The notes under the pieces were generated by a model. The model was given only the letters and a program-made list of their open reading frames with translations. It did no database searches and had not been told where the DNA came from. The position numbers were made by a program, and so were the translations under genes. Below, piece by piece: positions 22,207-23,383 of a DNA stretch of 64,000 bases; the stretch's first letter is position 1, and each line of letters opens with the position of its first letter. Origin of the DNA: Ostreococcus lucimarinus (Eukaryota). The stretch is taken from assembly GCA_000092065.1 (NCBI GenBank), contig CP000588.1; one strand, written 5' to 3'.

Positions 22207-22230
22207 TTGATTGATTGATTGATTGATTAT
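22207..22230. repeat. (GATT)6 microsatellite in intergenic/UTR region
   Basis: Direct reading: gattgattgattgattgattgatt. Confidence 0.8.
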
Positions 22231-22342
22231 ATTTGGACGAGCGGCGGCGCGTCGAGGCGTCGCCGACGAGCCACACTAGAGTTAGACCACGCATGTATTA
22301 GGCACCACAGCGAAATATTCGTACGCACCGCATGCGCTTCAA

Positions 22343-22416: not shown

Positions 22417-22488
22417 CTACGCCGTGCGTCGCATCACTTCGTCCTTCGCGCATTCATCCACGCACTTGTACATGTCAAAATATTGCCC
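22417..22488 (-). CDS. QCR6: Ubiquinol-cytochrome c reductase hinge protein (QCR6/UQCRH), last exon
   Basis: Reads GQYFDMYKCVDECAKDEVMRRTA*, matching plant QCR6 (HCTGQYFDYWQCVDKCVAPKLF). Acceptor gcgcgcag|GGG. Confidence 0.75.
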   Translation of the reverse strand, partial: GQYFDMYKCVDECAKDEVMRRTA

Positions 22489-22591
22489 CTGCGCGCGCCA
22501 TCGTCTTTCCGAGTCAGTCTCCGCGCGTCGTCGCCGTCCTCGTTCGCTCGTTCGCGTCTCTCGCGTCTCTCGGTCGCCTCGCCTCGCGCAC
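22489..22591 (-). other. QCR6: QCR6 intron 2 (103 nt, GTGCGC...GCAG)
   Basis: Reads CAC TGC ACG|GTGCGC. The two exons lie in different ORF-track frames. Confidence 0.7.
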
Positions 22592-22742
22592 CGTGCAGTG
22601 CGCCTCCCCCGTCTCGTCTCCCTTGATCCTCTCCGCGCACGCCTCGTACAGCTTGACGAACTTTTCGCACTTCGGCATGCACTTCTCCTCCACCTCGGGC
22701 TTGTGATCGACCGGTTCGTCGTCGTCGTCCTCCACGTCCGTC
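22592..22742 (-). CDS. QCR6: QCR6 middle exon: (M)TDVEDDDDEPVDHKPEVEEKCMPKCEKFVKLYEACAERIKGDETGEAHCT
   Basis: Acidic N-terminus and CxxxC...C pattern of the complex III hinge protein. It aligns with Arabidopsis QCR6 (DEEVVDPKKYLEESCKPKCVKPLLEYQACVKRIQGDDSGHKHCT). The in-frame upstream codon is TGA, and the only in-frame ATG is internal (MPKC). Confidence 0.7.
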
Positions 22743-22890
22743 CTGTCGTCGCGTCGTCGTCGTCGCGATCGTCGTCAGTCGTCGCGATCGACGTCGTCGC
22801 GTCGTTCGGCGCGTCGTTCGCCCGCGCCCGCGCGCGTCGTTCGCCCGCGCGCGTCGTTCGCCCGCGCGGCGCGCCCGCGGTCGCACGCAC
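22743..22890 (-). other. QCR6: Putative QCR6 intron 1 splitting the start codon (AT|GTGCGT ... cgacgacag|G)
   Basis: Minus strand ...GGAGAACGAT|GTGCGTGCGACC at 22891-22892/22890. Acceptor ACAG|G ACG GAC GTG at 22743/22742. This gives M-T-D-V-E-D-D... with phase 2. Confidence 0.45.
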
Positions 22891-23125
22891 ATCGTTCTCC
22901 CGCGCGTCCGCGTCGCCGTGTGCCGACGCGACCGCTCGAGCGATCGTCCAGGGGCGCGCGCGCGATCGTCGCCGCACACCGCGACGCGCGTCGCGCGCCC
23001 GCGACCAGTTCCGCGCGCGTTCGCTCGCGCGCGTTTCGCGTCACCGTTTCGCGCGGTTTCGTCGCTCGAACGCGCTCGACGGCGACGCCGCGCGCGGATT
23101 CGTCGCGCGCGCCGGCGCGCGCGCG

Positions 23126-23191
23126 ATGACGGAGGTCACGACGCGCGGGACGCCGGGCCTGCGCTCGGTGCGCGATCTACCGATCGTGCAG
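23126..23191 (+). CDS. NDUFA13: NADH dehydrogenase [ubiquinone] 1 alpha subcomplex subunit 13 (GRIM-19/B16.6), exon 1
   Basis: MTEVTTRGTPGLRSVRDLPIVQ|GTGCGG, aligning with Arabidopsis [22 protein letters not shown]. Confidence 0.75.
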
Positions 23192-23383
23192 GTGCGGCGA
23201 TCGATGCGAAAAGTTTTCGCGCGTCGCGGACGGCGCGCGGTGGCGGACGCGCGCGGTCGCGAAGGGCGCGCGCGCGCGCGAACGATGGCGCGCGAAGGCG
23301 GTGGGTTGGGTGGAGGACGCGGCGCGCGAGACGCGCGCGAAGCCGGAGACTGACGAACGCGCGATGCGCGCGCTCGGAAACAG
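23192..23383 (+). other. NDUFA13: NDUFA13 intron (192 nt, GTGCGG...AAACAG)
   Basis: The frame-2 exon 2 has an upstream in-frame TGA. Splicing restores ..PIVQ|DGPPPGGY. Confidence 0.7.

What the first reader, a model, noticed from the sequence alone, without database searches (positions are those of the whole stretch)
22417..22892. QCR6 (complex III hinge protein) start codon apparently split by an intron after AT
The QCR6 coding exon aligns residue-for-residue with plant QCR6, but its frame is closed by TGA just upstream and has no ATG before the acidic N-terminus. 148 nt upstream, ...gaacgAT|GTGCGT provides a donor with the same GTGCGT consensus used by other introns in this window. The acceptor ..cgacgacag|G restores ATG-ACG-GAC-GTG (M-T-D-V-E-D-D-D-D...). 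A 2-nt coding first exon would be unusual.
Basis: inference. Interest (0 to 1): 0.6.

Follow-up and report, generated by a model that had tools for sequence, protein, structure and literature searches.

The report
QCR6 start codon split by intron
The small respiratory-chain gene QCR6 in this Ostreococcus window almost certainly has its ATG start codon split after "AT" by a 148-base intron; the same arrangement is inherited and already annotated in other green algae and a liverwort, so it is a real but ordinary rarity that mainly corrects a truncated public gene model.

Summary
AT (22892-22891) | 148-nt intron (22890-22743) | G (22742) restores ATG-ACG-GAC-GTG. With a second intron (22591-22489), this gives a 74-aa UCR_hinge protein (Pfam E=2e-16).

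The intron matches the published O. lucimarinus splice consensus exactly (GTGCGTG donor, GACTGACG branch site, CAG acceptor). That combination occurs once in the 64-kb window against 0.03 expected. No other ATG lies in the 248 nt upstream of AT.

The same AT|GT...AG|G split is present at orthologous loci in five other Ostreococcus lineages, one unidentified green-algal contig, Bryopsis and Marchantia. The annotated O. tauri, Bryopsis and Marchantia proteins are reproduced only with a 2-nt first coding segment. RNA-derived contigs from three samples of a sister Ostreococcus show the spliced ...CGAT|GACC junction directly.

The rival internal-Met start is the public O. lucimarinus model XP_001419278.1 (52 aa). 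It would delete a conserved cysteine and 10 domain positions, and O. tauri has Ala at that position.

No transcript covering intron 1 was found for the window's own species.

Verdict: interpretation supported (about 0.93). This is an ancient, conserved start-codon intron of a known kind. The novelty is limited to a gene-model correction and the depth of conservation.

The parts
22893..23125 (-). Intergenic region / 5'UTR of QCR6, shared divergently with GRIM-19 (NDUFA13), whose ATG is at 23126-23128 on the + strand. The transcription start site is unknown. The stretch contains no ATG on the minus strand.
   Evidence: RNA-derived contig L001 of the sister lineage runs through the equivalent region.
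22891..22892 (-). Last two bases of exon 1: the A and T of the start codon, in the context gagAACGAT|GT with A at -3.
22743..22890 (-). Intron 1, 148 nt, phase 2 within codon 1. Donor GTGCGTG at 22890-22884. Branch motif GACTGACG at 22780-22773, which contains the in-frame TGA at 22777-22775. CTGAC ends 32 nt from the 3' splice site. Acceptor CAG at 22745-22743.
   Evidence: Consensus from PMC2483917.
22592..22742 (-). Exon 2. Its first base, G at 22742, completes the ATG. It then encodes TDVEDDDDEPVDHKPEVEEKCMPKC...GEAHCT. The internal Met codon (codon 23), used by the public 52-aa model, is at 22678-22676.
22489..22591 (-). Intron 2, 103 nt, phase 0 between HCT and GQY (GTGCGCG...GACTGAC...GCAG).
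   Evidence: Its removal is seen in the window species in the chimeric RNA-like contig L008. It is absent from the genome of lineage L010.
22417..22488 (-). Exon 3 coding part: GQYFDMYKCVDECAKDEVMRRTA plus the stop TAG (22419-22417).

Best explanation
The window carries the nuclear QCR6 gene (cytochrome bc1 complex subunit 6, the 'hinge' protein). The organism is Ostreococcus lucimarinus or a very close relative.

The gene is transcribed from a 233-bp ATG-free spacer shared head-to-head with GRIM-19/NDUFA13. Exon 1 is the 5'UTR plus the first two bases of the start codon. A canonical U2-type GT-AG intron of 148 nt is removed, joining AT to the G that opens exon 2. The first AUG of the mature mRNA is then followed in frame by the acidic N-terminus (MTDVEDDDDEPV...). 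A second 103-nt intron is removed further down. The product is a 74-aa hinge protein.

The G of the donor GT also completes an ATG in the unspliced RNA. The AUG therefore exists before splicing but opens a different frame (the arginine-rich ORF), so a functional protein depends on splicing.

What is shown: the signals, their uniqueness in the window, orthologous conservation, and the spliced junction in a sister lineage.

What is inferred: that splicing occurs in this species, and that the intron is ancestral to green plants. The ancestry follows from its presence at the same position and phase in Mamiellophyceae, Bryopsis (Ulvophyceae) and Marchantia (a land plant). Ostreococcus lacks the two other intron positions those two taxa share.
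For: - Geometry and translation.
- Pfam UCR_hinge, E=2.1e-16, covering residues 13-70.
- Solved bc1 subunit 6 chains align from residue 8-13.
- Exact match to the published O. lucimarinus 5' splice site and branch consensus. The combination is unique in the window (1 observed against 0.03 expected).
- No upstream ATG.
- Conserved AT|GTRCG, CTGAC 30-43 nt from the 3' splice site, YAG|G, and a purine at -3 in all six Ostreococcus loci.
- The region upstream of the internal Met is 70-86% identical between lineages. Intron and UTR are 56-68%.
- RNA-derived contigs L001-L003 against genomic L004 lack three introns and show ...GAACGCGAT|GACC.
- The O. tauri annotated CDS equals AT + 2100-2241 + 2378-2449.
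- The Bryopsis and Marchantia annotated proteins are reproduced only by GT-AG exon chains that begin with a 2-nt AT segment at the annotated gene start.
Against: - No transcript spanning intron 1 was found for the window's own species. Two exact junction scans of JGI metagenome/metatranscriptome contigs returned nothing. The exact 74-aa protein is not in the 15-billion-protein collection.
- The public O. lucimarinus model (XP_001419278.1) starts at the internal Met.
- The mRNA-to-genome alignment is ambiguous by one base (AT|G or ATG|). Only the canonical GT-AG rule fixes the boundary.
- The transcription start site is unknown.
Confidence: 0.93

Rival explanations
1. Translation starts at the internal Met (ATG 22678-22676), giving the 52-aa protein MPKCEKF... 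of the public O. lucimarinus annotation. On this reading the upstream acidic ORF segment is untranslated leader.
For: XP_001419278.1 (P0042) is exactly this 52-aa sequence. It is a real ATG in frame.
Against: - The Pfam domain and solved homologues begin 10-15 residues upstream of that Met.
- The conserved Cys22 in ...EEKC-MPKC aligns with a Cys in the plant and algal structures and would be lost.
- O. tauri has Ala in place of this Met, so the start is not available there.
- The upstream 21 codons are conserved at protein level across lineages while the intron and UTR are not.
- In the sister-lineage mRNA an AUG precedes it in frame. A scanning ribosome (established model of eukaryotic initiation) would use that AUG first.
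Confidence: 0.03
2. The start codon comes from a different upstream exon or donor, for example a transcription start beyond the GRIM-19 start with another ATG-containing exon spliced to 22742 or to another acceptor.
For: The transcription start site is not mapped. Two relatives have more than one AT|GT candidate upstream (L009, L010).
Against: - In the window there is no other ATG in the 248 nt upstream, and only one ATGTGCGTG in 64 kb.
- The acceptor phase requires a donor that contributes exactly two bases of a codon.
- The sister-lineage RNA and the O. tauri annotation both use the orthologous proximal AT|GT.
Confidence: 0.02
3. There is no intron 1, and initiation is at a non-AUG codon within exon 2 (for example GTG at 22735, which prokaryote-style gene callers chose) or by read-through of an unspliced leader.
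For: Prokaryote-style calls on public contigs start at that GTG (P0004, P0032).
Against: - These are mechanical ORF calls that also read through intron 2.
- The in-frame TGA sits 12 codons upstream.
- In unspliced RNA the first AUG opens a different, arginine-rich frame.
- Splicing is observed in the sister lineage.
Confidence: 0.02

Closest known systems
Ostreococcus tauri QCR6 gene model (CEG01357.1 / XP_022840908.1, assembly GCA_000214015.2)
   Same: It is the orthologous gene in the same synteny (EAP30, GRIM-19, QCR6..., SAP). The annotated CDS starts with a 2-nt segment AT, followed by a GT-AG intron (97 nt) with a CTGAC branch 34 nt from the acceptor CAG|G. The second intron is at the same HCT|GQY position.
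   Different: The donor is GTACGCG rather than GTGCGTG, and the intron is shorter. The N-terminus is MEDEEED rather than MTDVEDDDD. O. tauri has Ala where the window has the internal Met.
QCR6 gene models of Marchantia polymorpha (P0059) and Bryopsis sp. KO-2023 (P0026)
   Same: The first coding segment is AT, the intron is GT...CAG|G, and the second residue follows directly. Position and phase are the same.
   Different: The introns are longer (538 and 128 nt) with GTAAG/GTGAG donors. Both have further introns (YQ|AC, KC|AA) that Ostreococcus lacks. Both lack the Ostreococcus HCT|GQY intron.
Start-codon-disrupting introns elsewhere: Yarrowia lipolytica (42 introns with the 5' splice site after A, T or G of the ATG), and RPL19 of the microsporidia Nosema and Encephalitozoon
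   Same: A spliceosomal intron interrupts or abuts the initiation codon of a short, highly expressed housekeeping gene in an intron-poor genome (PMC13309789; PMC2685015). [quoted passage not shown]
   Different: These are unrelated genes and lineages, so the resemblance is analogy and not homology.
Public O. lucimarinus CCE9901 model XP_001419278.1 (52 aa)
   Same: It is identical to the C-terminal 52 residues of the protein reconstructed here, and it includes removal of intron 2.
   Different: It starts at the internal Met. It omits exon 1, intron 1 and the first 22 codons.

Membership tests
UCR_hinge / cytochrome bc1 complex subunit 6 (QCR6, UQCRH; Pfam PF02320) | Sequence match to the family profile above the curated threshold | tested here: met
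   60.2 bits against a cut-off of 27.2, E=2.1e-16. Residues 13-70 match profile positions 1-61 of 65.
UCR_hinge / cytochrome bc1 complex subunit 6 (QCR6, UQCRH; Pfam PF02320) | Conserved cysteine pattern of the helical hairpin, aligned with subunit 6 chains of solved bc1 complexes | tested here: met
   phmmer against PDB gives E=1e-20 to 1e-19 for algal and plant subunit 6 chains (9f5x, 8zno, 7jrg, 8bel). Every query Cys falls on a Cys in the three alignments printed (9f5x, 8zno, 7jrg), including Cys22 upstream of the internal Met.
UCR_hinge / cytochrome bc1 complex subunit 6 (QCR6, UQCRH; Pfam PF02320) | Acidic N-terminal segment | tested here: met
   Residues 3-10 are D-V-E-D-D-D-D-E. It is short, as in the plant proteins.
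UCR_hinge / cytochrome bc1 complex subunit 6 (QCR6, UQCRH; Pfam PF02320) | Physical presence in mitochondrial complex III | not testable with these tools
   Needs proteomics or a structure of the Ostreococcus complex.
Canonical (U2-type, GT-AG) Ostreococcus spliceosomal intron | 5' splice site consensus GTGCGTG | tested here: met
   The match is exact at 22890-22884. The consensus is quoted from PMC2483917.
Canonical (U2-type, GT-AG) Ostreococcus spliceosomal intron | Branch-point consensus GACTGACG at a constrained distance from a YAG acceptor | tested here: met
   The match is exact at 22780-22773, 32 nt from CAG. The distance is 30-43 nt in the five orthologous introns.
Canonical (U2-type, GT-AG) Ostreococcus spliceosomal intron | Removal from RNA | tested here: inconclusive
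   It is not observed for the window species. It is observed for the orthologous intron in a sister lineage, in RNA-derived contigs from three samples. Intron 2 removal in the window species is seen in L008.
Start-codon-splitting intron (phase 2 in codon 1) | The exon ends in AT, the next exon begins with G, the downstream frame is the protein frame, and no intact alternative ATG is available | tested here: met
   The stop lies 12 codons upstream in the genomic frame, and there is no ATG in the 248 nt upstream.
Start-codon-splitting intron (phase 2 in codon 1) | Same position and phase in orthologues with curated or transcript-supported models | tested here: met
   O. tauri, Bryopsis and Marchantia, and the sister-lineage RNA.

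The most novel reading that the evidence does not exclude
The AT|G intron of QCR6 is a single ancestral intron predating the chlorophyte-streptophyte split. Ostreococcus has kept it at that position while lacking the two other QCR6 intron positions shared by Bryopsis and Marchantia. Such retention in a genome that has shed most introns would suggest the intron is kept for function. Possible functions are intron-mediated enhancement of a tiny, highly expressed respiratory gene, or making a translatable reading frame strictly dependent on splicing. A corollary is that gene finders lose or truncate QCR6 because of it: the O. lucimarinus 52-aa model, the 'partial' O. tauri RCC1115 model and the old 101-aa Marchantia model.
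Probability: 0.3. Interest if true: 0.4.

Novelty: new member of a known kind. Interest (0 to 1): 0.27.

Why it matters
It corrects a public gene model. O. lucimarinus QCR6 should be 74 aa, not 52 aa, which restores a conserved cysteine and the acidic N-terminus that defines the hinge protein.

It also gives a clean, well-supported example of a start codon assembled by splicing. This is a case that automatic annotators miss repeatedly in this very gene: the 'partial' O. tauri RCC1115 entry, the 101-aa old Marchantia model and the truncated O. lucimarinus model.

The finding that the same position and phase is shared by prasinophytes, an ulvophyte and a liverwort makes it a useful marker intron. 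It is a small test case for why 5'-most introns survive genome streamlining.

It does not reveal a new kind of mechanism.

Tried and rejected
- **Junction scans.** Exact scans of JGI metagenome contigs for the window species found nothing: GAGAACGATGACGGACGTGGAGGA, then ATGACGGACGTGGAGGACGACGA, 0 hits each. That collection therefore gives no direct RNA evidence.
- **Exact protein look-up.** The 74-aa protein is not present in the 15-billion-protein collection.
- **Locus of the public model.** Look-up of the encoding contig of the 52-aa O. lucimarinus model found nothing on record. The window's species assignment therefore rests on 52/52 identity to XP_001419278.1, not on a locus match.
- **L008.** It looked like a window-species transcript with a different N-terminus (MNEVNTVGPCC...). 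The 5' part is unrelated lower-GC sequence joined inside exon 2, so it is a chimeric assembly. It is informative only for intron 2.
- **Introner or repeat element.** I considered whether intron 1 is a repeated element. The only repeats found are local: a perfect 17-nt unit in 2.6 copies and GAC-type triplets. The strict splice-signal pattern has no second copy in the window. I did not run a direct similarity search of the intron against the window or elsewhere.
- **Non-canonical boundary.** ATG|TGCGTG...CAGG|ACG is compatible with the mRNA but would need TG-GG splice sites. I rejected it in favour of GT-AG.
- **Literature.** Searches for a prior description of the QCR6 split start codon found none. 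Only general surveys and cases in other genes turned up.

Full report
**1. What is in the sequence**

The gene lies on the minus strand. Reading that strand:
- Exon 1 ends ...GGAGAACGAT at 22891.
- Intron 1 runs from 22890 to 22743 and is 148 nt long.
- It begins GTGCGTGCGA and contains GACTGACG at 22780-22773.
- It ends GACGACAG.
- Exon 2 begins with G at 22742.

Joining AT to that G gives ATG ACG GAC GTG GAG GAC GAC GAC GAC GAA CCG. A second intron (22591-22489, 103 nt, GTGCGCG...GACTGAC...GCAG) sits between HCT and GQY. Exon 3 ends with TAG at 22419-22417. The spliced CDS is 225 nt and encodes MTDVEDDDDEPVDHKPEVEEKCMPKCEKFVKLYEACAERIKGDETGEAHCTGQYFDMYKCVDECAKDEVMRRTA.

In the genomic frame a TGA (22777-22775) closes the frame 12 codons upstream of the first full codon. 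No ATG intervenes. That TGA is part of the branch-site motif.

**2. Identity of the gene and organism**

The protein matches Pfam UCR_hinge (PF02320) at 60 bits, E=2e-16, over residues 13-70. It aligns with bc1 subunit 6 chains of solved algal and plant complexes from query residue 8-13 onward, including every cysteine in the alignments printed.

The C-terminal 52 residues are identical to XP_001419278.1 of Ostreococcus lucimarinus CCE9901, which is annotated as starting at the internal Met. The window is therefore O. lucimarinus or a very close relative. The locus of that record could not be fetched.

The neighbour on the other strand is GRIM-19/NDUFA13. Its ATG is at 23126-23128 (+), only 233 bp from the QCR6 AT. 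The EAP30, GRIM-19, QCR6..., SAP order recurs in the related loci L004, L009, L011 and L014.

**3. Is it more than chance?**

[quoted passage not shown] Intron 1 matches both exactly.

The combined pattern GTGCGTG-N(30-400)-GACTGACG-N(15-50)-YAG occurs once on both strands of the whole window, and that occurrence is 22743-22890(-). Thirty first-order Markov simulations gave a mean of 0.03. A looser pattern picks up 13 matches, some overlapping at shared acceptors, including QCR6 intron 2.

On the minus strand there is no ATG in the 248 nt upstream of AT, a stretch that runs past the GRIM-19 start. Wherever transcription starts in the spacer, the junction AUG is therefore the first AUG. It has A at -3.

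**4. Comparative evidence within Ostreococcus**

Protein searches returned many prokaryote-style ORF calls on related contigs. Their read-through N-termini end in ...R-TDVEE, the signature of cAG|G read as AGG.

I fetched five orthologous genomic loci: L004, L009 (O. tauri), L010, L011 and L014. All have AT|GT(G/A)CG, a CTGAC 30-43 nt from the 3' splice site, and (C/T)AG|G in the correct phase. They restore MTDVEE.., MEDEEED.., MSSEDEDD.., MTDVEEDD.. and MSDVEDDE.. respectively. Intron lengths range from 97 to 202 nt.

Identity to the window differs by region:

| Region | Identity to window |
|---|---|
| Intron 1 and 5'UTR | 56-68% |
| 21 codons upstream of the internal Met | 70-86% |
| Rest of exon 2 | 81-94% |

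O. tauri has Ala where the window has the internal Met, so the internal-Met start cannot be the ancestral or general solution.

**5. Transcript evidence**

Three contigs from three sequencing runs (L001-L003) encode MTDVEEDDEPV... L001 begins with 25 T, the poly(A) tail of the antisense GRIM-19 mRNA.

All three map to genomic L004 in four collinear blocks at 97-100% identity. The three missing segments coincide with the GRIM-19 intron, QCR6 intron 1 and QCR6 intron 2. At the junction the RNA reads ...GAACGCGAT-GAC(C/T)GACGTC, where the genome reads ...GAACGCGAT|GTGCGTGCGAGG...CCGCAG|GACCGACGTC. This shows the split start codon directly in a sister lineage. The boundary is ambiguous by one base in the alignment, and only AT|GT...AG|G is canonical.

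For the window species itself I found only L008. It is a chimeric contig that shows intron 2 removed. Two junction scans and an exact protein look-up found nothing across intron 1.

**6. Existing annotations**

The O. tauri reference model CEG01357.1 (71 aa) starts at the AT. It is reproduced exactly by AT (L009 2001-2002) + 2100-2241 + 2378-2449.

An unidentified 59% GC green-algal contig (L016) shows GCGCGAT|GTGCGTG...GGCTGAC...TTGCAG|GGACGACGAA, giving MDDEEVIDPK.

For Bryopsis sp. KO-2023 and Marchantia polymorpha I searched exhaustively for GT-AG exon chains that reproduce the annotated proteins. Each gave a single solution, and each begins with a 2-nt segment AT at the annotated gene start:
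- Bryopsis: AT|GTGAGT...CGCAG|GTCTGAA.
- Marchantia: AT|GTAAGA...CTCAG|GTCGGAC.

An older Marchantia model of 101 aa reads ...VPR-SDDAED, which is through the acceptor.

Bryopsis and Marchantia also share introns at YQ/N|AC and KC|AA. Ostreococcus lacks both. The Ostreococcus HCT|GQY intron is absent from those two taxa and from lineage L010. The start-codon intron is thus the only QCR6 intron position common to all of these taxa.

**7. Mechanism**

The following is inference from the anatomy, the sister-lineage RNA and the established scanning model of initiation.

The gene is transcribed from the short bidirectional spacer. Ordinary U2-type splicing removes 148 nt. The first AUG of the mRNA is assembled from AT of exon 1 and G of exon 2, and it is followed by the hinge-protein frame.

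In unspliced RNA the G of the donor GT also completes an AUG, but it opens a different, arginine-rich frame. Productive translation therefore depends on splicing. Whether the intron is retained for a function such as intron-mediated enhancement is speculation.

**8. Comparison with what is known**

Start-codon-disrupting introns are documented:
- Nielsen and Wernersson call them 'relatively rare, especially in plants' (PMC1626468).
- Yarrowia has 42 introns whose 5' splice site follows the A, T or G of the start codon (PMC13309789).
- Microsporidian RPL19 has its start codon interrupted (PMC2685015).

I found no paper describing the QCR6 case. It is nevertheless implicit in the public O. tauri, Bryopsis and Marchantia models.

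**9. Verdict**

The residual doubt is that no transcript from this species covers intron 1.

It is a new member of a known kind. In practice it is a correction of the O. lucimarinus gene model from 52 aa to 74 aa. The added point is that this rare intron position is old and conserved across green plants. Interest is modest.

Noticed in passing
window 22893-23128 (both strands); L004, L009, L011, L014: QCR6 (complex III) and GRIM-19/NDUFA13 (complex I) are head-to-head neighbours. Their start codons are 233 bp apart with an ATG-free spacer. The arrangement is conserved in the related Ostreococcus loci L004, L009, L011 and L014. RNA-derived contigs merge the two mRNAs, which suggests overlapping 5' ends or a shared bidirectional promoter for two respiratory-chain subunits.
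   Followed up: partly
window 22489-22591 (-); L010 about 730-745; L018; L019: The second QCR6 intron (HCT|GQY) is absent from the genome of one Ostreococcus-like lineage (L010; the intron-less ORF is also called on contigs of up to 19 kb, P0043). It is not present in Bryopsis or Marchantia. It is therefore either a lineage-specific gain or a recently lost intron.
   Followed up: partly
window 22825-22868 (within intron 1): A perfect 17-nt tandem repeat (CGCCCGCGCGCGTCGTT on the + strand, 2.6 copies) and GAC/TCG triplet runs make up much of intron 1. This looks like a recent local expansion and not a dispersed introner, but I ran no similarity search elsewhere.
   Followed up: partly
public records XP_001419278.1 (O. 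lucimarinus), OUS46817.1 (O. tauri, 'partial'), P0062 (old Marchantia model, 101 aa): Three public QCR6 models are truncated, flagged partial or wrongly extended at the N-terminus. The apparent cause is that the pipelines could not handle a 2-nt first coding segment.
   Followed up: partly
L008 1-1830 versus 1830-2239: This Logan contig is a chimera. Unrelated lower-GC sequence is joined inside QCR6 exon 2 of the window species. The QCR6 part is spliced at intron 2 and carries the 3'UTR with one base difference and one extra AATC repeat unit.
   Followed up: yes
window about 22210-22240 (-): An (AATC)n microsatellite lies in or just after the QCR6 3'UTR. Its copy number differs between the window and contig L008.
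   Followed up: no
P0001 (ENA contig, 106 aa): A strain variant of the window species has an intron 2 without an in-frame stop. A mechanical ORF call therefore reads straight through exon 2, intron 2 and exon 3. This is probably a coincidence of a length divisible by three.
   Followed up: no
window 22424-23353 (+) and 22434-22979 (-): Long arginine- and alanine-rich ORFs (309 and 181 aa) overlap the QCR6 locus on both strands. They look like products of the 63% GC composition and not genes. I did not test them against protein families.
   Followed up: no
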